DNA from: Escherichia coli
GTDB taxonomy: Bacteria > Pseudomonadota > Gammaproteobacteria > Enterobacterales > Enterobacteriaceae
Reading direction: 5' to 3' (one strand)
DNA length: 64,000 nt
Assembly: GCF_003991155.1 (NCBI RefSeq)
Contig: NZ_CP031293.1
Under the pieces are notes generated by a model. It saw only the letters and a list, made by a program, of their open reading frames with translations, did no database searches and was not told the DNA's origin. Shown here piece after piece: positions 3,692 to 41,935 of this stretch. Made by a program: the position numbers and the translations under genes. Position 1 is the stretch's first letter; each line of letters starts with the position of its first letter.

Positions 3692-4363
3692 TTAGGGCTG
3701 ATTTGCTGTATAGCGCACGAACGCCGGACGTTCCGAGGCCACCGCGTCCGCCCAGCGCGTTGGCTCCGGCAGACGATAGCCTTTCATGCAGCGTTGTACC
3801 CACGCCAGCGCGCTGTCCACGCTAACCCGATGGCCGGTAGCGATAAACAATGGGTTACAGCGCGCTTTGCTGCGCCAGACCCAGGCCAGCTGCTCGCCTT
3901 TATCCATCAGTGGGGCCAGCGCGCCCGGTTCGCTGGAGAGCGGTTCGAATTTACCGCAGAGCCGTTTTTTCGCCACGCCTATCGTTGGCACATCCACCAA
4001 TAAGCCAAAATGGCTGGCGACACCAAGACGGCGAGGATGCGAGATCCCGTGACCATCGACAAACACTAAATCCGGCTTTTGTGACAGCATCTCCCACGCT
4101 GCCAGCAGCGCAGGATATTCGCGGAAGGAGAGAAAACCTGGAATATAAGGCATGGTGGTGGCGATGCGGGCCACTTTATACTCCACCAGCTCAAGCGAGG
4201 GGTATTTCAGCAGCACCATCGCCGCTCGCGTCACTTCTCCGCCCTGCTCAAATCCGACATCGGCTCCGGCGATCAGATCCGGTGGATCTTTATCGAGTCG
4301 ATCCTCGCGGATCACAGAAGAAGCCAGTTCGATTTGTTGAGCGCGTAATGACGCGAGATCCAT
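3692..4363 (-). CDS. nfi: Endonuclease V
   Basis: 223-aa ORF; synteny downstream of hemE; sequence consistent with E. coli Nfi. Confidence 0.93.
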
Positions 4364-4372
4364 AATCGCTCC

Positions 4373-5437
4373 TTAGCGGTGATACTGTTCAGACAAGCGA
4401 TGCACTGCCTCCACAAACACGCCAGCATGTTCTGGCGGCACATCCTGATGAATGCCGTGACCAAGGTTAAAGACATGACCTTCGCCGTGACCGAAACCGG
4501 CAAGTATAGTCGCAACTTCTTCTTCAATGCGGGCAGGCGGTGCGTACAGCATCGACGGATCCATATTACCCTGCAACGCGACTTTATTGCCCACGCGGCG
4601 GCGCGCATCGGCGATGTCCGTTGTCCAGTCGAGGCCCAGCGCATCGCAACCGGTTTCTGCCATCGCTTCCAGCCACTGTCCGCCACCTTTGGTAAACAGC
4701 GTGACCGGTACGCGGCGACCGTCGTTTTCACGCAGTAAACCATCAACAATTTTATGCATGTAATAGAGCGAGAACTGTTGATAATCGCGCCCGGTAAGCA
4801 CGCCGCCCCAGGTGTCGAAAATCATCACTGCCTGAGCACCGGCTTTAATCTGCGCATTCAGATACAAAGTGACGCTTTTCGCCAGTTTATCGAGTAGCGC
4901 GTGCAGCGCCTGCGGATCGGCATACATCATTTTTTTGATCACGGTGAAGGCTTTGCTGCTGCCGCCTTCCACCATGTAGGTCGCCAGCGTCCACGGGCTG
5001 CCAGAAAAACCAATCAGCGGCACTTCGCCTTTCAGTTCGCGACGAATGGTACGCACCGCGTTCATCACGTAACCCAGCTCATCTTCCGGGTCCGGAATTG
5101 GCAGTTTATCGACGTCGGCTTTGCAGGTGACTGGCGAGGTAAAACGCGGACCTTCTCCGGCTTCAAAATAGAGCCCTAACCCCATCGCGTCCGGCACGGT
5201 GAGGATATCGGAAAAGAGGATCGCCGCATCCAGCGGGTAGCGACGCAGCGGTTGCAAAGTCACTTCGCACGCCAGCTCGGCGTTTTTGCACAGCGACATA
5301 AAATCGCCCGCCTGGGCGCGCGTGGCTTTATATTCCGGTAGATAGCGACCCGCCTGGCGCATCATCCATACTGGAGTGACATCAACGGGCTGGCGCAGCA
5401 GCGCCCGCAGATAACGATCGTTTTTAAGTTCGGTCAT
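4373..5437 (-). CDS. hemE: Uroporphyrinogen decarboxylase
   Basis: 354-aa [39 protein letters not shown] (URO-D signature). Confidence 0.96.
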
Positions 5438-6854: not shown

Positions 6855-6965
6855 CGCCCCGTTTGTGGGGCTAATTTCTTGTCGGAGTGCCTTAACTGGC
6901 TGAGACCGTTTATTCGGGATCCGCGGAACCTGATCAGGCTAATACCTGCGAAGGGAACAAGAGTT
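6855..6965 (+). promoter_or_regulatory. TPP riboswitch (thi-box) in the thiC leader
   Basis: Conserved thi-box elements GGGGCUA...CUGAGA...ACCUGAUC.GGCUAAUACC.GCGAAGGGAACAAG immediately upstream of thiC. Confidence 0.85.
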
Positions 6966-7050
6966 AATCTGCTATCGCATCGCCTTTGCGGCGATCGTCT
7001 CTTGCTTCATCCGTCGTCTGACAAGCCACGTCCTTAACTTTTTGGAATGA

Positions 7051-10517: not shown

Positions 10518-11288
10518 ATGTTACGTATTGCGGACAAAACGTTTGATTCACATCTGTTTACCGGCACAGGGAAATTCGCCTCTTCACAACTGATGATGGA
10601 GGCGATCCGCGCTTCCGGCAGCCAGCTGGTGACACTGGCGATGAAACGCGTCAACTTGCGCCAGCACAACGACGCTATCCTCGAACCGCTTATCGCGGCG
10701 GGTGTGACCCTGCTGCCAAATACATCCGGGGCGAAAACAGCGGAAGAAGCCATTTTCGCTGCCCATCTGGCTCGTGAAGCGTTAGGCACAAACTGGCTAA
10801 AATTAGAGATTCACCCTGACGCCCGCTGGCTGTTGCCCGATCCCATCGAAACCCTGAAAGCTGCCGAAACGCTGGTACAACAGGGATTTGTCGTGCTGCC
10901 TTACTGCGGGGCCGATCCGGTATTGTGTAAACGTATGGAAGAAGTCGGCTGTGCAGCGGTGATGCCGCTCGGCGCGCCGATTGGCTCGAATCAGGGACTG
11001 GAAACCCGTGCCATGCTGGAGATTATTATCCAGCAAGCCACGGTTCCGGTGGTTGTCGATGCTGGCATCGGCGTTCCCAGCCATGCCGCGCAGGCGCTGG
11101 AAATGGGGGCCGACGCGGTGTTAGTGAATACGGCGATTGCCGTCGCGGACGATCCCGTCAACATGGCGAAGGCATTTCGTCTGGCAGTAGAAGCAGGCCT
11201 GCTGGCACGTCAGTCCGGACCGGGCAGCCGCAGTCATTTTGCTCATGCCACCAGCCCGCTGACCGGATTTCTGGAGGCATCTGCATGA
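10518..11288 (+). CDS. thiG: Thiazole synthase ThiG
   Basis: 256-aa protein starting [20 protein letters not shown]; ATG 1 nt after the thiS stop. Confidence 0.95.
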
Positions 11289-12418
11289 AAACCTTCAGCG
11301 ATCGCTGGCGACAACTGGACTGGGACGACATCCGCCTGCGTATCAACGGCAAAACGGCTGCTGACGTAGAGCGGGCGCTAAATGCCTCGCAACTCACCCG
11401 CGACGACATGATGGCATTGCTATCACCCGCCGCCAGTGGCTATCTGGAACCACTGGCCCAGCGAGCGCAGCGTCTGACCCGTCAGCGATTTGGCAACACA
11501 GTTAGTTTCTACGTCCCGCTTTATCTTTCCAATCTTTGCGCTAACGACTGCACGTACTGCGGATTTTCCATGAGCAATCGCATCAAGCGCAAAACACTGG
11601 ATGAAGCGGATATTGCCAGGGAAAGCGCCGCTATACGGGAGATGGGCTTTGAACATCTGCTTTTAGTCACTGGTGAACATCAGGCGAAAGTGGGGATGGA
11701 TTACTTTCGTCGTCATCTCCCTGCCCTGCGTGAACAGTTCTCTTCACTACAGATGGAAGTGCAACCGCTGGCGGAGGCGGAATATGCCGAGCTAAAACAG
11801 CTGGGTCTCGATGGCGTGATGGTTTATCAGGAGACATATCACGAGGCGACTTATGCCCGCCATCATCTGAAAGGCAAAAAACAGGACTTCTTCTGGCGGC
11901 TGGAAACGCCGGATCGGCTGGGCCGTGCGGGGATTGATAAGATAGGCCTCGGCGCGCTAATTGGCCTTTCCGACAGCTGGCGCGTTGACTGCTATATGGT
12001 TGCAGAACATTTGCTATGGCTGCAACAGCATTACTGGCAAAGCCGCTACTCTGTCTCCTTCCCACGCCTGCGTCCATGTACTGGCGGCATTGAGCCTGCG
12101 TCGATTATGGATGAACGCCAGTTAGTGCAAACCATCTGCGCCTTCCGGCTGCTTGCACCGGAGATTGAACTGTCACTCTCCACGCGGGAATCACCGTGGT
12201 TTCGCGATCGCGTGATTCCGCTGGCAATTAATAACGTCAGCGCTTTTTCGAAAACGCAGCCAGGTGGCTATGCCGACAATCACCCCGAGCTGGAACAGTT
12301 CTCACCACACGACGATCGCAGGCCGGAAGCGGTTGCTGCCGCGTTAACCGCTCAGGGTTTGCAGCCGGTATGGAAAGACTGGGACAGCTATCTGGGACGC
12401 GCCTCGCAAAGGCCATGA
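11285..12418 (+). CDS. thiH: 2-iminoacetate synthase ThiH (radical SAM tyrosine lyase)
   Basis: 377-aa ORF with the radical-SAM motif [10 protein letters not shown]; overlaps the thiG stop (ATGA). Confidence 0.96.
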
Positions 12419-12530
12419 GACAGAATGTAAGAACGTAAATTTATTCCGAGCCGCTACGGAAGATGAAAAACGCAAGGTTGTTGAAAGCGTTGTGTTTTTT
12501 TATGGTAGTGCCGTCAGCAGGAATGTTGTC

Positions 12531-12563
12531 CAGGGCGAAAAGCTTCTTCCTCGTTTCGCCCTG
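12531..12563 (+). terminator. Stem-loop (10-bp stem) downstream of thiH; candidate terminator or island-boundary structure
   Basis: CAGGGCGAAA-13 nt-TTTCGCCCTG perfect inverted repeat followed by CCTTTCTT. Confidence 0.35.
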
Positions 12564-12735
12564 CCTTTCTTAAAATAACGTCTCAGTACGCTATTTCATG
12601 ATTGCCCGCAAAAATATTCATTAATATTTCTATTGTTTTAACAAAGAAGGCACAAGGCTTTAATTGCAAAGCAAGATCGCCGTCAAAACAAGAGTGTGCA
12701 ATAACCGGTTATAATAATTCCACCCTCACCAAAAT

Positions 12736-13386
12736 ATGGTCCAGAACATCATGTCAGCTTACCTAAAAAAAGCGTTATCGATTCATAGTGATGAATTTCG
12801 CCCATACGGAAACGTAATTTCTGCAATAAATGTAGATTCATTGCTTAAATACCTTAAAGAGGAAATTTCTGTACCTGAGGATCAGGTGGCATATGTCAGA
12901 AGCGATGAGCGCTTAAAGCAATACCCCGCCGTGAGCGACATTCAGCGCCAAATCTACGGTGGAATGCCCGTTCAGGCTGGGTACGTTTGTGGGGTAAATA
13001 CCACCCAGGATGGCTTTGAATATCACCAGGGAAGTGAAGTCATTATCGCCGCCAGCGATTTTTTCCTGTTTTTAGGTAAACGAGAGTTGATGCAGGGTGA
13101 CACGTTTAATGGTGAACGTGCAGAGCCGTTTTTCATTCCGGCAAAATCGGTGATTGAACTTTATAGCACAACGCTACATTACTGCCCTATGAGTATCAAT
13201 GCACAACCTTTTAGTGCAGCGATTATTCTTCTTGATGGAACTAATGAAGATATTGATGGCAAGAATAAACCAACAATATTAAGCAAGCGAAATACCTGGT
13301 TTATCGCCCATGAAAGTTTCACTGAGCATCCTTGCCCATTATTAAAAGGGCCGCATCTTTGCGTGAATGATATTATTCATGGGTGA
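12736..13386 (+). CDS. Cupin-like protein of unknown function (ureidoglycolate-lyase-like N-terminal motif; possibly DUF4867-type)
   Basis: 216-aa ORF with no K-12 counterpart at this locus; AT-rich codon usage; motif EFRPYGNVI resembles the AllA-family N-terminus; alternative start at MSAYLKK (12751). Confidence 0.6.
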   Translation: MVQNIMSAYLKKALSIHSDEFRPYGNVISAINVDSLLKYLKEEISVPEDQVAYVRSDERLKQYPAVSDIQRQIYGGMPVQAGYVCGVNTTQDGFEYHQGSEVIIAASDFFLFLGKRELMQGDTFNGERAEPFFIPAKSVIELYSTTLHYCPMSINAQPFSAAIILLDGTNEDIDGKNKPTILSKRNTWFIAHESFTEHPCPLLKGPHLCVNDIIHG

Positions 13387-13390
13387 AAAT

Positions 13391-13410
13391 GGCGAAGATT
13401 TCTCTTCGCC
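13391..13410. terminator. Shared hairpin between convergent island genes
   Basis: GGCGAAGA-TTTC-TCTTCGCC perfect stem-loop in the 30-bp gap between the cupin-like gene stop (13386) and the hydrolase-like gene stop (13417). Confidence 0.5.
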
Positions 13411-13416
13411 TGTTCT

Positions 13417-16071
13417 TTACCCGGCAATTACCGCCACGCTGTCTTTTGTTCGCACGCGTGGTGGCATGGTCAGACCGCAGCGATCCCACTCATTCCCCTG
13501 CCATGCACTCGCAAAATAATAATGATTCGCTGCCGATGGGTAGACCACGACCGCCAGTTCATTACGCTTTTTTAGTAAAGACTGTGGCAAGGTGAAACGA
13601 TATTCCGGCCAGCCCTTTTCGGCAATTAACGTATCGTTAAGCCAGATAGCAACGCTTCCCTGCACTTGCGGTAAATAAAGCTCAATATCGTCGGTAATCG
13701 TCTCCAGCGCAAAGCGTAACTGATAATGTCCCGGACCACACCACGTCTCCATCCCCTGCTGCTCCCACCCTTTTGTTACCTCAACGGGTCGGGAAACGTT
13801 ATCAACCAGCAGTTGCCAGTGCTTATCCAGCACCACCTCGTGGCGACTTTCCACTACCTGCAATGAAAAGCAACGGGCCTGCCAGGGCTCGATTTGTAGC
13901 GGATAACTTCCCGTGAGATGCTCTTCCAGCACTGAAACCTCTCCCGTTGCAAGATGCCACTCCGACAACTGCCCACTGAGGCCCGGAAAATGTAGCCAGC
14001 CGTAGAGCGGGGTATCTCCGTCGTTAAATACGCTGACGTAACGCGATGTTTCATCCTGGGTAATTCGCGTCCAGACGGCAGTTTTCCGGGAGGGATAGTC
14101 AACAAAGGGGTGATCGTTTTTCAGCGTGTCGGCTAACGTGCTGCACTGCGGTTGCGCCTCAATCAGTTTTTGCAGCCTTTCGGTGAGAGAACGATCTTCA
14201 CCTTTTTCCTCGCTATATGCCGCAAGCTCGCCGGCGATCAGAAGCTGGCCACCAGCGGCGACAAAGTGCTCCAGTTGGCTCAGCGTGGCGGCTGATTTCA
14301 CCACCTTAACGTCCGCTAACAGAAGCGCAGGGAAATTCATGCCGTTAATGCGCGTTCCATCAGCCTGGAGCAAATTCTCTTCATCAATAAAGAAATATTC
14401 AAATCCCTGAGCGCTGAGTTGTTTTGCCCAATATTCGCCTGACTGCCCTTCGTTGCCATCCACGCCACAGTGCCAGAAAGTCCGTTTGGGATAGAGTACG
14501 CCAACATCAACGTACGGCTCTCCCTGCTCAAGAAATTCGGCAAGGCGACCAGATTCCTGAGCAAACCCAGCGTGGAAGGCGTACCAGGGCTGGAAGTTAA
14601 CGCCCGGCGCAAAATCAAAACGCGGGTTACTTAATACGTCGTCATTTGCCTCGCCATCCGTCAGCCAGAACGCGTGCATCAAAAATTGCCGCGCACCGAG
14701 GAGGTGATGGCGCAATGCCTGCAACCGGATGTCATGCAGTGAAATTTCCCACTGCCCGGCAGCAAAATGTGTGCATGGCTTCACCCGCGCATAATATTGC
14801 TCAACAATGCACCCTTTACGCCCATGAGCGCGCGCCACAGAGTCGCCAACCTTCGCCGCCATCTGCGGCTCGCTATTTCGCGAATCGACAGCCGTAATAT
14901 CCCGCCAGCCATCGAGAGCAAAGTAATCCATAGCAAAATTACACCGGTTATCTTCGGTGATGATTTTACTGGCGAAATTCCAGCTACTAACGTGACCTAA
15001 TACTTCATGACCACTTAGCTGTATTCCCCGCTGGTGCGCCCATTCTGACAACGTACCAAAAAAGGCCTGCATCGCCTGGCTGGAATAACAGGAAAGCAGC
15101 TCACAGCGCCGACGTGCGGTACGACTGCCAATGTCCATAACTAACGACATCAGGTTTTCTGCCAGGCAGTAAGGTGCCTGTTGCAATGCATCAACAAACC
15201 TTTTTTCATACATTAAGGAGGATTTGACCGCGCCAGTATGTTCATTCCATTGCCAGAAACAGGCGTGTGGCTGGTCGAAAAAGAGATACGCCACCGTCTT
15301 ACCAAAATGATCGCCAAAAGCGCGGGCGTAAGGTTCATAGCCGACACGAATAAAATTTTCTGCCGCTTCGGGCATCAGGTAATTAATCATCCGTGAGGTC
15401 AAGCAACGCGCCGCGGCAAAGAGCGTCACTACCGTTTCCGCACCCCAGGGCAGGTCGCTTCCCGTAAAGGTGACCTCAAATTCCTCTGTGGTTGCTTTGG
15501 TGATGCGGGCCAATGAAGAAACATCAACAATTTCATCTGCATTGCACTCCCCTGATGAAGAGGTGGCATACGCTGCGACAATTTCCCATTCATCCCACGC
15601 CGGTTTACCGCCAGCAAAAATCCACTCCATTCCACACTGCTGTAGCGCCTGCGCATCCGCAGAGCGGATCCCGGAAAGGTGACATGTCAGTACATCTGCA
15701 GACCGGCTGGACTGGCTCCAGAAAAGATGGCGCTCACGCAGCTCATCTCTCCCTTCAACGGTCCTTCCCCCGGCGTGCCCGGAAAGCCAGTTGTAATCAT
15801 CGTAGATGCCCATCATCAGCCCAATATTGGCAGCTTTATCAGCCGTGTAGCGACAGGCTGCCAGCCACTCCTCACTGAGATAACTCTCCAGCGGAAGACT
15901 CAGACGTGCGGCTATCTGAAATGAACCATACCCTCCCGCCTGCAGTTGCCTCAGTTGGCTGTCGATCTGCTTTTTGTCCGGAATGGTATGCCAGAACCAG
16001 TAGGTTGCAGGCAGGTGCCATACATCAGGATTTTTAAAGTTTTGGCGTGCCTGTGCTAACGAATCATTCAT
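13417..16071 (-). CDS. Large cytoplasmic hydrolase-like protein (putative glycoside hydrolase, family unassigned)
   Basis: Track ORF 13417..16104; start chosen at MNDSLAQARQ (ATG at 16071) because of the AGGGGGAAAGCC RBS 6 nt upstream; 884 aa; no signal peptide; C-terminal region looks beta-sandwich/carbohydrate-binding-like; no K-12 homolog recalled. Confidence 0.75.
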   Translation of the reverse strand: MNDSLAQARQNFKNPDVWHLPATYWFWHTIPDKKQIDSQLRQLQAGGYGSFQIAARLSLPLESYLSEEWLAACRYTADKAANIGLMMGIYDDYNWLSGHAGGRTVEGRDELRERHLFWSQSSRSADVLTCHLSGIRSADAQALQQCGMEWIFAGGKPAWDEWEIVAAYATSSSGECNADEIVDVSSLARITKATTEEFEVTFTGSDLPWGAETVVTLFAAARCLTSRMINYLMPEAAENFIRVGYEPYARAFGDHFGKTVAYLFFDQPHACFWQWNEHTGAVKSSLMYEKRFVDALQQAPYCLAENLMSLVMDIGSRTARRRCELLSCYSSQAMQAFFGTLSEWAHQRGIQLSGHEVLGHVSSWNFASKIITEDNRCNFAMDYFALDGWRDITAVDSRNSEPQMAAKVGDSVARAHGRKGCIVEQYYARVKPCTHFAAGQWEISLHDIRLQALRHHLLGARQFLMHAFWLTDGEANDDVLSNPRFDFAPGVNFQPWYAFHAGFAQESGRLAEFLEQGEPYVDVGVLYPKRTFWHCGVDGNEGQSGEYWAKQLSAQGFEYFFIDEENLLQADGTRINGMNFPALLLADVKVVKSAATLSQLEHFVAAGGQLLIAGELAAYSEEKGEDRSLTERLQKLIEAQPQCSTLADTLKNDHPFVDYPSRKTAVWTRITQDETSRYVSVFNDGDTPLYGWLHFPGLSGQLSEWHLATGEVSVLEEHLTGSYPLQIEPWQARCFSLQVVESRHEVVLDKHWQLLVDNVSRPVEVTKGWEQQGMETWCGPGHYQLRFALETITDDIELYLPQVQGSVAIWLNDTLIAEKGWPEYRFTLPQSLLKKRNELAVVVYPSAANHYYFASAWQGNEWDRCGLTMPPRVRTKDSVAVIAG

Positions 16072-17563
16072 GGCTTTCCCCCTTCTTAATCGGCGGAACA
16101 TCACAATGACAAATGTATGTCAAAATGGCATACAGCGCCGCGCCCACCAGCATCGCCACCACTACGCCAATATTTGCTGTCGCAAACACGCTGGTTTTGG
16201 TTTCTGCCGTCAGTAAGAAGCCGACCAGGTGAGCAATCCACGGATCGCCTGAGGTGATGGTTCCCATGCCGATAACCGATGCAACAAACAGCGATAATAA
16301 TGCCGTCCAGCGACCGTTACGCCCGCCAAGCCCCGCGGGCTGCGCCATATCAGTGTTCCAGTGCAAGCGTTTTTGCCGGGCAAAGTCGACAAGCTGGATT
16401 GCGCCCATCGATCCCAATACGACGGATACCGTTGCCAGAAAAGACTGAAAGGTTGCGAGGAACGAGTCAGAAACAAACAATAAGTAGAAGGCACCGAATG
16501 CGATAATGACCGCATTGATAGCAGTGGTGGTTGAACGACTGGCTGGAACGCCCATTGCCAGCAATGCGAGGCCTGAGCTGTAAACACCTGTAATGGCTGC
16601 CGCCAGCAGGGAGATGATGATCACGATTGAAAACGGCACATAGAACCAAAACGGCAGGAACGAGGTTAAGGCCGCAATCGGTTCGGACGCTGCTGCTCCG
16701 CTCAGTTCCGGGTTACTGTCGGCCAGCAGGGCACCTAAAATCAGCAGGATGGAAACCGGAAGCGAAATCCCAAGCGACGTCCAGAAAATCACTTTCCCGG
16801 CAGCGGTTTTGCGCGGCAGGTAACGGGCGAAATCACCGCCATAGTTGAGAAAGCCCAGCCCAACCATCGTCATTGCCATCACCATGCCGCCGATAAACGT
16901 TAAAAATCCGGCATCGGGAGCAGCACCCGCCTGCGACCAGTGAATATGTGGCAGGATCAGGATAATAAAGATGATGCTCATTCCGCCCGTTAACCATGCA
17001 ATATACTTTTCTACCTTCATGATGAGCTGGTGGCCGTAGATGGCAACGGACATAGTCAATACTAAGGTCACCACGAACCAGCCCAACAGGCACCCTAAGG
17101 TAGGGTGACCGTTTTCTGCTGCAAATACGGTTGGCCATAACCGGGCAAAGAGGGCGGCGCCAGTGGTCGAGGACAACGTAATAATGGTGATTTTCCAGCC
17201 CATATTGGAAATATAGGCAAATAAAGTGGGGATCTTATTCCCATGATAACCAAAGGCAAATCGGGTCTGCGTTAAGGTAGGCAGCCCGGTGCGTGGCCCA
17301 CCAACGGCCAGAACCCCCACCAGCGTGCTGGATAAAAAATAGCCCACGACACCGGCAACAATCGCCTGCCAGAGGCTTAACCCCAGTGAGTAAACATAAA
17401 TCCCATAGGTAATACCGAGGATGGATACATTCCATGAAAACCAGATCGGGAAAAGTCCGGCAGGCGAACCATAACGTTCGTTATCACTAACCGGGTTTAC
17501 CCCATTGGTTTCCACCTTCATCGTACCTGAAACATCAGATGGGTTCTGGGCTTGGCTCGTCAT
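16064..17563 (-). CDS. NCS1-family (nucleobase/nucleoside/vitamin:cation symporter) permease
   Basis: Start set at MTSQAQNPSD after a GAGAGGAAAT RBS within the longer track ORF; about 499 aa, highly hydrophobic with multiple predicted TM helices; resembles purine-cytosine/allantoin/hydantoin permeases. Confidence 0.8.
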   Translation of the reverse strand: MTSQAQNPSDVSGTMKVETNGVNPVSDNERYGSPAGLFPIWFSWNVSILGITYGIYVYSLGLSLWQAIVAGVVGYFLSSTLVGVLAVGGPRTGLPTLTQTRFAFGYHGNKIPTLFAYISNMGWKITIITLSSTTGAALFARLWPTVFAAENGHPTLGCLLGWFVVTLVLTMSVAIYGHQLIMKVEKYIAWLTGGMSIIFIILILPHIHWSQAGAAPDAGFLTFIGGMVMAMTMVGLGFLNYGGDFARYLPRKTAAGKVIFWTSLGISLPVSILLILGALLADSNPELSGAAASEPIAALTSFLPFWFYVPFSIVIIISLLAAAITGVYSSGLALLAMGVPASRSTTTAINAVIIAFGAFYLLFVSDSFLATFQSFLATVSVVLGSMGAIQLVDFARQKRLHWNTDMAQPAGLGGRNGRWTALLSLFVASVIGMGTITSGDPWIAHLVGFLLTAETKTSVFATANIGVVVAMLVGAALYAILTYICHCDVPPIKKGESHE

Positions 17564-17564
17564 T

Positions 17565-18782
17565 TTATTTCCTCTCATATTGAGCAAGACGTGATAGTAC
17601 GGCTTCATACTCAGGCATGTTCGATGCGCCTTCCCGCTCGACCGCCAGAGAAGCAAACGCAGAGGCAAATTTTGCTGCACTGAGCAACGGCTGGCCCTGC
17701 GCAATCGCCGCAGCAAACGCACCGTTAAACGCATCCCCCGCACCGGTGGTGTCAATACTTACTGCTTTTAACGCTGGAATATGGGTAAATTGTTCACCGT
17801 CATAAATCAGCGCCCCTTGAGAACCCATCGTAATAATGATGTTTTTTGCCCCCAGGGATTTTATGGTTTGCGCCGCTTCTTTCGCACTCTCGATATCATT
17901 AATCTCGACACCGGACATCAGCGACGCTTCTGTTTCATTCGGTGTCAGATAATCAACATATTGCAGGCATTCTTTTGCCTGGTCAGAATAAGGGGCTGGG
18001 TTAAGGATAGTTTTCACGCCCGACCGATGTGCCATATTTAGTGCCAGCGTGGTTGCTTCAAAGTTATTTTCCAACTGTGTCAAAAATATTTTGGCGTCCG
18101 TCAACTCACCCGCAATACTGGCAACTTCCGCTTCAGTGATATATTGATTGGCGCCAGAATAAATCGCGATCTTGTTTTCACCAGCAGGCTCCGAAACATA
18201 TATTATGGCGCTTCCTGTTTTATGCTCTTCGTCCTGGTAGAGGGTAAAGCTGCGGATATCGGATGAAGAGAGATGATCATGCGCCATCTGGCCGAAATGG
18301 TCGTTGCCAACTTTGCCGACGAAGTGTACCTGGACGGGACATTTGCTGGCTGCCATCGCCTGGTTTGCGCCCTTGCCGCCAGGTCCAATGATGGTATTGC
18401 TGGCAAGAATTGATTCGCCGCTTTTAGGGAAGCGATCAACTTTGGCAATAATATCGACATTAAAAGATCCTAATATACAAACTTTGCTTATCATTATTTT
18501 CCCTTTTTTGTTTGTCATCGAGTTTTTTCGCCAGTTGACCTGATTGAGGAACTTTTCAATAGAGGTACCAACGTTATTAACGGGCTGAGAATGGAAAATC
18601 CGACGCAATATTATTGCTCCGCCGTGACAACGCTCAACACCCCCTTGCTCCGCTAATAAATTTAAATCATTACGGATCGTTTCTTTACTGACAGAGAATA
18701 AGATGGCGAGTTGATTAACCGTAGCCCGCTCATGTTTATTCAAATATGCCAATATTTGACGTTGTCTTTCTTTCCCAAACAT
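17565..18782 (-). CDS. DeoR-type HTH domain fused to a ribokinase/PfkB-family carbohydrate kinase domain
   Basis: 405-aa ORF; N-terminal about 60 aa ERQRQILAYLNKHERATVNQLAILFSVSKETIRNDLNLLAEQGGVERCHGGAI is a DeoR-family HTH; C-terminal about 305 aa carries PfkB motifs GPGGKGANQA and DTTGAGDAFNGAF; GAGGTG RBS; stop 1 nt before the permease ATG. Confidence 0.8.
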   Translation of the reverse strand: MFGKERQRQILAYLNKHERATVNQLAILFSVSKETIRNDLNLLAEQGGVERCHGGAIILRRIFHSQPVNNVGTSIEKFLNQVNWRKNSMTNKKGKIMISKVCILGSFNVDIIAKVDRFPKSGESILASNTIIGPGGKGANQAMAASKCPVQVHFVGKVGNDHFGQMAHDHLSSSDIRSFTLYQDEEHKTGSAIIYVSEPAGENKIAIYSGANQYITEAEVASIAGELTDAKIFLTQLENNFEATTLALNMAHRSGVKTILNPAPYSDQAKECLQYVDYLTPNETEASLMSGVEINDIESAKEAAQTIKSLGAKNIIITMGSQGALIYDGEQFTHIPALKAVSIDTTGAGDAFNGAFAAAIAQGQPLLSAAKFASAFASLAVEREGASNMPEYEAVLSRLAQYERK

Positions 18783-18987
18783 GATTTCACCTCACGTAAC
18801 ATTTATATCTTTTGTAATTTTCTGATTCCATGAATCCTTTCACACTACCATCACGAAAACAAAAACAAACGGGAATTTTTGGAGGAAAGGTTTTTTTATT
18901 CAATGGGATAGTGAGAGGGGAATGTTGTTTTGAAAAAACACTCCCGAAAAATGCGTGGGAAAGCGCTTTCAATCGTAAACGGAATGC

Positions 18988-19019
18988 AAAAAAAAGCCAG
19001 TCAGTGTGACCTGACTGGC
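18988..19019 (-). terminator. rpoC rho-independent terminator
   Basis: GCCAGTCAG-GTCACA-CTGACTGGC hairpin followed by a T8 run on the minus strand, 20 nt downstream of the rpoC stop. Confidence 0.85.
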
Positions 19020-19039
19020 TTATTTCTTAAGAAGAGCGA

Positions 19040-41883: not shown

Positions 41884-41935
41884 ATTATAGGGAGTTATTC
41901 CGGCCTGACAAGAGGAAATTTAAAATAATTTTCTG
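41884..41935 (-). promoter_or_regulatory. rrnB P1 promoter with A/T-rich UP element
   Basis: Minus strand TTGTCAGGCCGGAATAACTCCCTATAATGCGCCACC preceded by AGAAAATTATTTTAAATTTCCTC (UP element). Confidence 0.85.

What the first reader, a model, noticed from the sequence alone, without database searches (positions are those of the whole stretch)
12467..12563. Structured non-coding boundary downstream of thiH
Two stem-loops lie in the 317-bp gap between thiH and the cupin-like gene: a weak hairpin followed by a T7-8 run (about 12467-12501; AACGC...GCGTT then GTGTTTTTTT), a likely thiH terminator, and a perfect 10-bp inverted repeat with a 13-nt loop (12531-12563). The second structure sits where the conserved backbone meets the island and could mark the recombination joint or a protein-binding site.
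Basis: seen in the sequence. Interest (0 to 1): 0.25.

Follow-up and report, generated by a model that had tools for sequence, protein, structure and literature searches.

The report
Unannotated small RNA gene after thiH
The two hairpins after the thiamine gene thiH are real, but rather than an island scar they are a terminator with a promoter nested inside it and the end hairpin of a conserved, abundant, still unnamed ~57-base RNA.

Summary
Both stem-loops exist at the stated coordinates. They lie in single-copy backbone DNA found in 5420 of 5426 complete E. coli genomes, so they are not REP elements.

Comparison with 60 distinct Enterobacteriaceae sequences changes the interpretation. Hairpin 1 is a terminator-like hairpin with a U7 tail, and a conserved sigma-70-type promoter sits inside it: TTG in the loop, a 17-nt spacer, TAnnnT, and a G six nt further on. 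The predicted start is G12513. From there come a 5'-terminal hairpin (12513-12530) and hairpin 2 (12531-12563). Both stems covary, and the wobble pairs fit only the + strand.

Published K-12 data agree. A 5' end maps to the positions equivalent to 12512-12514. A strong "orphan" Term-seq 3' end maps to the equivalent of 12569. It is strongest in LB stationary phase and weakest in minimal medium, the opposite of what thi mRNA should show.

This implies a ~57-nt RNA that is absent from the MG1655 annotation, from Rfam and from the sRNA lists I checked. Conservation stops where this transcription unit ends. I found no sign of site-specific recombination. The RNA's function is unknown.

The parts
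11285..12418 (+). thiH, last gene of thiCEFSGH; stop codon ends at 12418
   Evidence: ORF list; RefSeq annotation of the 100%-identical strain 2016C-3878
12444..12461 (+). Small 3'-UTR hairpin UUCCG...CGGAA, which contains the nearly invariant C-G-.-A (12457, 12458, 12460); role unknown
   Evidence: Fold; nearly invariant columns C8, G9, A11 of alignment A3
12466..12501 (+). Hairpin 1: A tract 12466-12470, stem-loop 12471-12494, U7 12495-12501. Candidate intrinsic terminator of the thi operon, weak in E. coli
   Evidence: Stem covaries (6 of 6 pairs with double changes). Terminator-like in 25 of 60 relatives. No 3' end reported here in K-12 Term-seq
12478..12483 (+). -35 element TTGTTG, inside the loop of hairpin 1
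   Evidence: T and G of TTG invariant in 60 sequences; hexamer list
12501..12506 (+). -10 element TATGGT; its first T is the last T of the U tract
   Evidence: T52 and A53 nearly invariant, T57 invariant; spacer to the -35 is 17 nt in 55 of 60
12513..12569 (+). Predicted ~57-nt RNA: GUCAGCAGGAAUGUUGUCCAGGGCGAAAAGCUUCUUCCUCGUUUCGCCCUGCCUUUC
   Evidence: 5' end: K-12 TSS entry RVS_(III)-4188664 (4188662-4188664, U00096.2), equivalent to window 12512-12514. 3' end: K-12 Term-seq 4190584(-), equivalent to window 12569, in 3 conditions. Fold -19.3 kcal/mol. The covariance model finds one + strand copy per locus
12513..12530 (+). Hairpin A, 5'-terminal, with a GGAA loop; imperfect in E. coli (one U-U)
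   Evidence: 89.5% of cells paired and 5 of 7 pairs with compensatory changes; GGA in the loop in 40 of 60
12531..12563 (+).
   Evidence: 97.4% of cells paired; 6 of 9 pairs with compensatory changes; A-U to G-C 44:16 with no mismatch. Loop 79% pyrimidine, UUCC in 55 of 60
12564..12575 (+). Tail CCUUUC^UUAAAA: the mapped 3' end falls after C12569. The end of conservation shared by three E. coli haplotypes falls at 12573-12575
12576..19035 (.). Variable segment (the 'island'): DUF4867 gene (+), 895-aa protein with no Pfam match (-), cytosine/purine-type permease (-), DeoR-HTH/PfkB kinase (-), and its own rpoC terminator (18990-19025). It takes the place of sroH and yjaZ of K-12

Best explanation
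The interval belongs to a compact, conserved unit that follows thiH: a terminator, a promoter and a small RNA.

Hairpin 1 with its U7 tract is the inferred intrinsic terminator of the thi operon. It is weak in E. coli.

A sigma-70-type promoter is nested in that terminator. The -35 (TTGTTG) lies in the hairpin loop, the U tract forms most of the 17-nt spacer, and the -10 (TATGGT) begins at the last T.

Transcription starts at about G12513. It yields an RNA of about 57 nt made of a 5'-terminal hairpin (12513-12530) and hairpin 2 (12531-12563), ending at CCUUUC (12569).

In Escherichia, hairpin 2 followed by CCUUUCUU most likely acts as a modest intrinsic terminator. It may also serve as a block to 3' exonucleases. 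With base-paired ends on both sides the RNA would be stable, which would explain its abundance.

Homology between strains and genera ends 4-6 nt after the RNA's 3' end because the selected unit ends there. Whatever lies between it and rpoC is free to be exchanged: sroH-yjaZ, nothing, the four-gene island, or diguanylate cyclase and PTS genes in other genera.

Shown: the structures, the covariation, the conserved promoter geometry, and the mapped 5' and 3' ends in K-12. Inferred: that the 5' end is a primary start, and the mode of 3'-end formation.

Function is not known. My best guess (about 0.4) is a trans-acting small RNA whose conserved C/U-rich apical loop (UUCCUC, resembling the anti-Shine-Dalgarno sequence) pairs with purine-rich, ribosome-binding-site-like sequences. 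It may be induced in stationary phase.
For: Conserved promoter geometry in 60 distinct sequences:
- T and G of TTG are invariant, T-A of the -10 nearly invariant and its last T invariant, and the G at +1 is invariant.
- The spacer is 17 nt in 55 of 60, and six nt separate the -10 from the G in 56 of 60.
- These motifs persist in the 35 of 60 relatives whose hairpin 1 is not terminator-like.

Mapped RNA ends in K-12:
- A 5' end lies exactly at the predicted +1.
- A Term-seq 3' end lies 6 nt after hairpin 2 in all three conditions, with scores 130,816 (LB OD 0.4), 527,736 (LB OD 2.0) and 74,886 (M63). These are comparable to SroH (441,000-576,000).
- The score is lowest in minimal medium without added thiamine, where the thi operon should be most active.

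RNA structure:
- Pair counts: hairpin 2 is 97.4% paired with 6 of 9 compensatory pairs; hairpin A is 89.5% paired with 5 of 7. Slid controls give 28-44%.
- RNAalifold predicts both hairpins independently.
- G.U wobble fits the + strand in 30 cells, against 4 A.C cells.

Copy number and occurrence:
- The covariance model finds one copy per locus, always on the + strand just after thiH, in 66 of 80 species.
- The 57 nt are identical in 4953 of 5420 E. coli genomes.

Boundary and independence:
- Three E. coli haplotypes diverge at the same point, just after the RNA.
- The downstream diguanylate cyclase genes have their own -10-like boxes, and the unit persists where that gene is absent.
Against: - The K-12 5' end is 'Class III' in Romero et al. 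It is a leading edge of transcription but is not enriched by TAP treatment, so a processed 5' end is not excluded.
- The E. coli promoter matches the consensus in only 7 of 12 positions, and the consensus scan missed it.
- In most genera hairpin 2 is not followed by a U-rich tract. There it cannot be a canonical terminator, and the RNA may continue as a leader.
- The experimental data come from K-12, not from this strain.
- No target, binding protein or phenotype is known.
- I could not view the primary dRNA-seq tracks.
Confidence: 0.68

Rival explanations
1. There is no separate gene. Both hairpins are tandem terminators or stabilisers in a ~150-nt thiH 3' UTR. The ~57-nt species is then a stable decay or processing fragment of thi mRNA, cut at about 12513 and protected by hairpin 2.
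For: The 5' end is not TAP-enriched (Class III). No 3' end is reported at hairpin 1, so thi transcripts may well run on to hairpin 2. The E. coli promoter is weak by consensus.
Against: The invariant TTG / 17 nt / TAnnnT / 6 nt / G geometry across genera has no obvious RNA-level explanation. The 3'-end signal is 7-fold higher in LB stationary phase than in minimal medium. In both media most thi transcripts already stop at the TPP riboswitch, where the orphan 3' end at 4196185 scores about 1.9 million. A fully paired 5' end can itself reduce TAP and ligation efficiency.
Confidence: 0.15
2. The unit is a relic, or a still-working cis-acting leader, of the gene that follows it in most genera (a dCache-GGDEF diguanylate cyclase). 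In E. coli, which lost that gene, the RNA is an abundant by-product with no function of its own.
For: In about half of the relatives a 510-520-aa dCache_1-GGDEF gene follows on the same strand 100-230 nt downstream. Most genera lack a U tract after hairpin 2. Forty of 60 have a GGA motif in the loop of hairpin A. From my own knowledge, CsrA binds such motifs and regulates other E. coli diguanylate cyclase mRNAs.
Against: The unit is kept, loop sequence included, in lineages where the cyclase is absent (Escherichia, Trabulsiella, Cedecea, Franconibacter). The cyclase genes have their own -10-like boxes 30-50 nt before the ATG. The sequence between hairpin 2 and the cyclase gene is not conserved.
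Confidence: 0.12
3. One reading: hairpin 2 marks the recombination joint of the island, or is a DNA site bound by a protein.
For: It lies 12 nt from the homology break. Three haplotypes break at the same point. Two rare IS insertions show the neighbourhood can be hit.
Against: The hairpin lies wholly in backbone shared by all haplotypes and by other genera. No direct or inverted repeats flank the island, and no integrase or transposase is present. The stems covary with strand-specific G.U pairs, which a symmetric DNA operator would not allow. A mapped RNA 3' end coincides with it. It is single-copy and not REP.
Confidence: 0.04
4. The region encodes a 36-aa protein (ATG 12463 to TAA 12573, MKNARLLKALCFFMVVPSAGMLSRAKSFFLVSPCLS), whose stop codon coincides with the homology break.
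For: The ORF is open in Escherichia and ends 2 nt before the break.
Against: Frame, start and stop are not conserved outside Escherichia. Loop-length differences are not multiples of three. The ATG follows directly on GGAAG, with no spacing for a ribosome-binding site. Nothing is annotated here in MG1655.
Confidence: 0.02

Closest known systems
3'-UTR sRNAs that have their own promoter and share the mRNA's terminator (the class that includes DapZ and MicL; from my own knowledge)
   Same: A small RNA gene sits at the 3' end of a biosynthetic operon on the same strand, with its own promoter downstream of or overlapping the end of the upstream gene. If thi transcripts read through hairpin 1, mRNA and sRNA share the 3' end at hairpin 2.
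   Different: The promoter lies after the stop codon and inside a terminator hairpin. The RNA is very short (~57 nt). It lacks the long U tail typical of Hfq-dependent sRNAs. No Hfq or ProQ association and no target is known.
SroH (Rfam RF00372), the annotated sRNA of the thiH-yjaZ spacer in K-12
   Same: Same intergenic region and same strand as thiH. It is abundant and of unknown function.
   Different: It is a different sequence, lying about 100 nt further downstream with its own TAP-enriched start. It is absent from this window, from about 30% of E. coli genomes and from ten other genera tested. The RNA described here is present in nearly all of them.
Intrinsic (Rho-independent) terminators, including bidirectional ones flanked by A and U tracts
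   Same: Hairpin 1: a stem directly followed by U7 and preceded by A5. Hairpin 2: a G+C-rich 10-bp stem with a mapped 3' end 6 nt downstream.
   Different: Both loops are unusually large (12-13 nt). The loop of hairpin 1 is large because it holds the -35 element. The loop of hairpin 2 is conserved in sequence, which terminators do not need. In most genera hairpin 2 has no U tract.
REP / BIME extragenic palindromes
   Same: An imperfect or perfect palindrome in an intergenic region between convergent genes.
   Different: It is single-copy in every genome, does not match the REP consensus, and has a conserved loop.
RNA genes used as island integration sites (tRNA and tmRNA att sites)
   Same: Variable DNA begins immediately after the 3' end of a small structured RNA gene.
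   Different: No integrase, no duplicated 3' segment and no flanking repeats. The other end of the variable segment is the rpoC stop codon, and the segment carries its own rpoC terminator. This points to replacement by homologous recombination in the flanking genes.

Membership tests
Intrinsic terminator (hairpin 1) | Stable stem-loop immediately followed by a U-rich tract | tested here: met
   Core stem 12471-12494, -8.0 kcal/mol, then U7. The homologues in Salmonella and Enterobacter fold at -15 to -16 kcal/mol
Intrinsic terminator (hairpin 1) | RNA 3' ends map to the U tract in vivo | tested here: not met
   No 3' end at 41906xx(-) in any of three conditions in Adams et al. 2021, Supplementary file 1. 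The table is thresholded and comes from K-12, so a weak terminator is not excluded
Intrinsic terminator (hairpin 2) | G+C-rich stem followed by a U-rich tract | tested here: inconclusive
   Perfect 10-bp stem. The tail CCUUUCUU has 5 U in 8 in Escherichia, but the tails in most other genera are C-rich with few U
Intrinsic terminator (hairpin 2) | RNA 3' ends map just downstream in vivo | tested here: met
   Term-seq 3' end at 4190584(-), equivalent to window 12569, in all three conditions. No entry beginning 41903-41906 turned up in the Rho-termination table (Supplementary file 2), which was searched by those coordinate prefixes only
Sigma-70-type promoter | -35 and -10 hexamers 16-18 nt apart, with the start 5-9 nt after the -10 | tested here: met
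   TTGTTG, 17 nt, TATGGT, 6 nt, G. The key bases are invariant or nearly so in 60 sequences. The E. coli version matches only 7 of 12 consensus positions
Sigma-70-type promoter | A primary (triphosphate) 5' end at the predicted start | tested here: inconclusive
   A 5' end lies at exactly the predicted position, but it is Class III: a leading edge that is not TAP-enriched
Structured small RNA | Base pairs maintained by compensatory substitutions on one strand | tested here: met
Structured small RNA | A discrete transcript of the predicted size seen directly (Northern blot) | not testable with these tools
   Only separate 5'-end and 3'-end maps are available. They come from two different studies, both in K-12
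REP element | Many dispersed copies per genome | tested here: not met
   One place per genome in 5420 genomes; one copy in the window with up to 3 mismatches allowed
SroH (RF00372) or any other Rfam family | Match to the covariance model | tested here: not met
   No match at E up to 1 in window 11800-13400. SroH scores 201 bits in K-12, about 100 nt downstream of the element
Site-specific integration (att) site | Flanking direct repeats and a nearby recombinase gene | tested here: not met
   No repeats link the two island ends; the island genes are metabolic or transport genes
Small protein gene | Reading frame, start and stop conserved among relatives | tested here: not met
   The ORF is conserved only within Escherichia
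CsrA-binding RNA | Two or more GGA motifs, at least one in a hairpin loop | tested here: not met
   There is one GGA, in the loop of hairpin A, in 40 of 60 sequences; I saw no second GGA when reading the E. coli RNA sequence. Binding itself was not tested

The most novel reading that the evidence does not exclude
The element is a genuine, independently transcribed small regulatory RNA gene that has escaped annotation in E. coli K-12. It is conserved across many Enterobacteriaceae genera. Its promoter is built into the thi-operon terminator, so terminator and promoter share the same bases. It is up-regulated in stationary phase. It acts in trans through an anti-Shine-Dalgarno-like C/U-rich loop.
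Probability: 0.4. Interest if true: 0.6.

Novelty: new member of a known kind. Interest (0 to 1): 0.5.

Why it matters
E. coli K-12 is the most thoroughly searched genome for small RNAs. Even so, this RNA is as abundant at its 3' end as SroH, and its two helices show clear covariation in about 60 species. It is missing from the MG1655 annotation, from Rfam 15 and from the sRNA lists I could check, and it appears only as an 'orphan' 3' end.

The layout is also instructive. The -35 sits in a terminator loop and the U tract serves as promoter spacer, so one 40-bp stretch both ends one transcription unit and starts the next.

For genome comparison, the result shows that a sharp backbone/island boundary can simply mark the end of an unannotated selected element. 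It need not be a recombination site.

Tried and rejected
- REP or repeat family: rejected, the element is single-copy.
- Known RNA family: none in Rfam. SroH is a separate RNA further downstream in K-12.
- Small ORF ending at the break: rejected, it is not conserved.
- Minus-strand RNA or symmetric DNA operator: rejected on the wobble asymmetry, 30 G.U against 4 A.C. The covariance model also gave only weak minus-strand matches (E of 0.5 or more), and nothing promoter-like is conserved to the right of hairpin 2.
- Island att site: no flanking repeats and no recombinase.
- Loop-loop pairing between GGAA (hairpin A) and UUCC (hairpin 2): possible in E. coli, but not conserved in Kosakonia, Cedecea or Buttiauxella, so I dropped it.
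- Loop complement GAGGAAGAAGC as a cis target in the window: nothing notable.
- Literature:
  - No paper held both sroH and thiH in its main text, and a sequence search found nothing.
  - Two TSS supplements, Kim 2012 and Ettwiller 2016, gave no hit for this position.
  - Maes 2016 has no supplement held, and Thomason 2015 is not held.
  - The RNA is not listed in Bar 2021 or Rau 2015.
  - One early search on 'sroH' alone returned only dental-health papers.

Full report
WHAT THE SEQUENCE SHOWS

The window is E. coli and is 100% identical over the tested stretch to strain 2016C-3878. thiH, the last gene of thiCEFSGH, ends at 12418.

The minimum-energy fold uses a different register, CGCAA.GUU / AAG.CGUUGUG (12471-12494), which ends directly at the U7 tract (12495-12501). 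That 42-nt segment folds at -14.6 kcal/mol with z = -4.8. Without the U tract the core is -8.0 kcal/mol.

Hairpin 2 is a perfect 10-bp stem with a 13-nt loop at 12531-12563. It folds at -15.0 kcal/mol, z = -2.9, and is unique in the window even when three mismatches are allowed. The simple terminator scan missed both hairpins because their loops exceed its limit.

WHERE HOMOLOGY ENDS

The 157 nt after the thiH stop codon are present once in 5420 of 5426 complete E. coli genomes at 95-100% identity. This is backbone DNA, not REP.

Against K-12 the window is identical through 12575 and unrelated afterwards. Homology resumes at the rpoC stop codon.

The segment in between (12576 to about 19035) carries these features:
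- a DUF4867 gene;
- an 895-aa protein with no Pfam match;
- a cytosine/purine-type permease;
- a DeoR-HTH/PfkB kinase;
- its own rpoC terminator.

It replaces sroH, yjaZ and the K-12 rpoC terminator. Forty-nine of 5426 genomes carry it, as do Escherichia whittamii and Escherichia sp. MOD1-EC7003.

Among E. coli genomes, 3718 have the K-12 arrangement. Most of the rest have a 240-bp thiH-rpoC gap with neither sroH nor yjaZ. All three haplotypes diverge at the same place, just after CCTTTCTTAA (12573-12575).

COMPARISON WITH OTHER GENERA

I fetched thiH loci from 80 species of Enterobacteriaceae. Hairpin 2 turned out to be conserved about 113 nt after the thiH stop codon in many genera. These include Citrobacter, Enterobacter, Lelliottia, Leclercia, Klebsiella, Raoultella, Salmonella, Kosakonia, Cedecea and Buttiauxella. 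In several of them the loop is identical as well, although the rest of the spacer has diverged.

In an alignment of 60 distinct sequences (A3) the fixed columns are not those of a hairpin. They are:
- the T and G of a TTG (window 12478 and 12480), both invariant;
- T and A (12501, 12502; 90% or more) and an invariant T (12506), forming TAnnnT;
- an invariant G (12513).

The TTG hexamer and the TAnnnT hexamer are 17 nt apart in 55 of 60 sequences. Six nt separate TAnnnT from the G in 56 of 60. This is the geometry of a sigma-70-type promoter with its start at the G.

The -35 lies in the loop of hairpin 1, which explains why that loop is 12-13 nt long. The U tract supplies most of the spacer, and the -10 begins at the last T.

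By my criteria hairpin 1 is terminator-like in only 25 of the 60 sequences. The promoter motifs are kept in all of them. The promoter is therefore the more conserved of the two overlapping signals.

THE RNA

Downstream of the predicted start lie two adjacent hairpins: hairpin A (12513-12530) and hairpin 2.

- Pair counts: hairpin 2 is paired in 97.4% of cells, with compensatory double changes at 6 of 9 pairs. One pair switches from A-U to G-C 44:16 without a single mismatch. Hairpin A is paired in 89.5% of cells, with 5 of 7 pairs compensatory. Sliding the partners by 1-3 columns drops pairing to 28-44%.
- RNAalifold predicted both hairpins without being told.
- Wobble pairs are G.U on the + strand in 30 cells, against 4 A.C cells. 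This argues for a + strand RNA and against either a minus-strand RNA or a symmetric DNA operator.
- A covariance model built from the alignment finds exactly one + strand copy per locus, always just after thiH, in 66 of 80 species. It finds nothing else in the window or in 650 kb of loci.
- The loop of hairpin 2 is 79% pyrimidine, with UUCC in 55 of 60 sequences and CUUCCUC in 40 of 60. The loop of hairpin A carries GGA in 40 of 60.
- The E. coli 57-mer folds at -19.3 kcal/mol with both ends base-paired or nearly so. It is identical in 4953 of 5420 E. coli genomes.

EXPERIMENTAL SUPPORT FROM K-12

Coordinates convert as MG1655 (NC_000913.3) = 4203153 minus the window coordinate. This rests on thiH at 4190735-4191868(-) and an indel-free alignment. 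U00096.2 coordinates are lower by 1977, as the sroH coordinates show.

3' end. Adams et al. 2021 (PMC7815308, Supplementary file 1) list an 'orphan' Term-seq 3' end at 4190584(-). Its flanking sequence reads ...CCAGGGCGAAAAGCTTCTTCCTCGTTTCGCCCTGCCTTTC. This is window 12569, 6 nt after hairpin 2. It appears in all three conditions:

| Condition | Score |
|---|---|
| LB, OD 0.4 | 130,816 |
| LB, OD 2.0 | 527,736 |
| M63 glucose | 74,886 |

For comparison, the SroH 3' end scores 441,000-576,000 and OxyS 47,193 in the same tables.

The search of the Adams supplements by coordinate prefix (41903-41906) returned hits only in Supplementary file 1, at these two 3' ends. So no 3' end is listed at hairpin 1. 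The same prefix search found no entry for this stretch in the Rho-termination table (Supplementary file 2).

The signal is highest in rich medium at stationary phase and lowest in minimal medium. That is the opposite of what thi mRNA should show. In all conditions the TPP riboswitch upstream of thiC already yields a premature 3' end scoring about 1.9 million.

5' end. Romero et al. 2014 (PMC4681348, supplementary table) list an E. coli start site RVS_(III)-4188664 spanning 4188662-4188664. This equals window 12512-12514, exactly the predicted +1. Class III means a leading edge of transcription in global RNA-seq without TAP enrichment. The position is therefore confirmed, but the triphosphate status is not. 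SroH has its own Class I start in the same table.

WHAT IT IS NOT

- It is not in Rfam.
- It is not SroH, which lies about 100 nt further on in K-12. SroH is missing from this window and from ten other genera tested.
- It is not a protein gene. The 36-codon ORF from 12463 to 12573, which ends 2 nt before the break, exists only in Escherichia, and frame, start and stop differ elsewhere.
- It is not an integration site. No repeats link the island ends and there is no recombinase.
- It is not annotated in NC_000913.3.
- It is not in the sRNA tables of Romero 2014, Rau 2015 or Bar 2021, and a sequence search of the paper library found nothing.

RELATION TO DOWNSTREAM GENES

In about half of the relatives the next gene on the same strand is a dCache_1-GGDEF diguanylate cyclase of about 513 aa. 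It is followed by cellobiose-type PTS IIB and IIA genes. In other relatives the PTS genes follow directly.

The cyclase genes have their own -10-like boxes 30-50 nt before the ATG. The spacer after hairpin 2 is not conserved. The unit also survives where the cyclase is absent. I therefore favour an independent small RNA over a leader, but a leader or relic origin remains a live rival.

MECHANISM, WITH SHOWN AND INFERRED STEPS

Shown:
- three hairpins, two of them with strong covariation;
- the conserved promoter geometry;
- a 5' end and a 3' end in K-12 at the predicted positions;
- single-copy, near-universal presence;
- a conservation boundary a few nt after the 3' end.

Inferred:
- the 5' end is a primary start (about 0.8);
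- in Escherichia, hairpin 2 plus CCUUUCUU terminates transcription (about 0.6), rather than merely halting 3' exonucleases after termination further downstream;
- hairpin 1 still terminates part of thi transcription in E. coli. It is weak (-8 kcal/mol, against -16 in relatives) and gives no listed 3' end, so thi mRNA may largely end at hairpin 2 as well;
- the C/U-rich loop is the functional surface (about 0.4).

Many homologues have a -10 ending in CT and a C just upstream of it. Together with the stationary-phase peak, this hints at RpoS dependence. I did not test this.

VERDICT

It is half wrong: hairpin 2 is the 3' hairpin of a conserved small RNA, not a recombination joint or DNA-binding site.

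The kind of object is familiar, a small structured RNA gene at an operon's 3' end. This member appears to be undescribed, and the promoter-inside-terminator arrangement is neat. Interest is moderate (0.5).

Noticed in passing
window 12576-19035: A four-gene segment lies between the small RNA and rpoC: DUF4867; an 895-aa protein with no Pfam match; a cytosine/purine/thiamine-type permease; and a 405-aa fusion of a DeoR HTH domain with a PfkB kinase domain. It has its own rpoC terminator at 18990-19025. It replaces sroH and yjaZ, occurs in 49 of 5426 E. coli genomes, and is also found in E. whittamii and Escherichia sp. MOD1-EC7003. G+C dips to 42-45% at both ends.
   Followed up: partly
L085 (strain E22) 548-641; about 1650 E. 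coli genomes: A third haplotype has only about 240 bp between thiH and rpoC, with no sroH and no yjaZ. This agrees with the published loss of sroH in phylogroups B2 and D (PMC3318445). It diverges from the other two haplotypes at the same point, after CCTTTCTTAA.
   Followed up: partly
L003 (strain ET82) 4093-5400; H122 (strain 504838): Two rare insertions disrupt the unit. In ET82 an IS3-family element sits between the -10 box and the predicted start (after the equivalent of window 12510). In strain 504838 the 57-nt RNA matches as two separate places, split after RNA position 17, next to an annotated IS1 element. These strains would be natural knock-outs.
   Followed up: no
window 12463-12573 (+): A 36-codon ORF (MKNARLLKALCFFMVVPSAGMLSRAKSFFLVSPCLS) spans all three hairpins and stops 2 nt before the homology break. 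It is conserved only within Escherichia, so this is probably coincidence.
   Followed up: yes
L012, L015, L021-L023 and others, 100-230 nt after the element: In many genera a membrane dCache_1-GGDEF diguanylate cyclase gene (about 513 aa) follows the element, then cellobiose-type PTS IIB and IIA genes. The PTS genes are preceded by a conserved TGTAACCGGTTTCAG motif, which may be an operator. E. coli lacks all of these at this locus.
   Followed up: partly
window 12444-12461: A small hairpin (UUCCG...CGGAA) in the thiH 3' UTR contains three nearly invariant bases (C12457, G12458, A12460), roughly 20 nt upstream of the -35. It could be a regulator site or an UP-like element for the nested promoter.
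   Followed up: no
window about 6873-6973 (+): The TPP riboswitch upstream of thiC is annotated at these positions in the identical strain. In K-12 Term-seq its premature 3' end (4196185, minus strand) is one of the strongest orphan 3' ends in all three media.
   Followed up: no
Two of the matches to the thiH-downstream segment are on records labelled as plasmids. I did not examine them.
   Followed up: no
PMC4844966 main text: thiH is listed among mRNAs whose stability and level fall in a csrA51 mutant. Together with the GGA motif in the loop of hairpin A, this is a weak hint of a link to CsrA.
   Followed up: no
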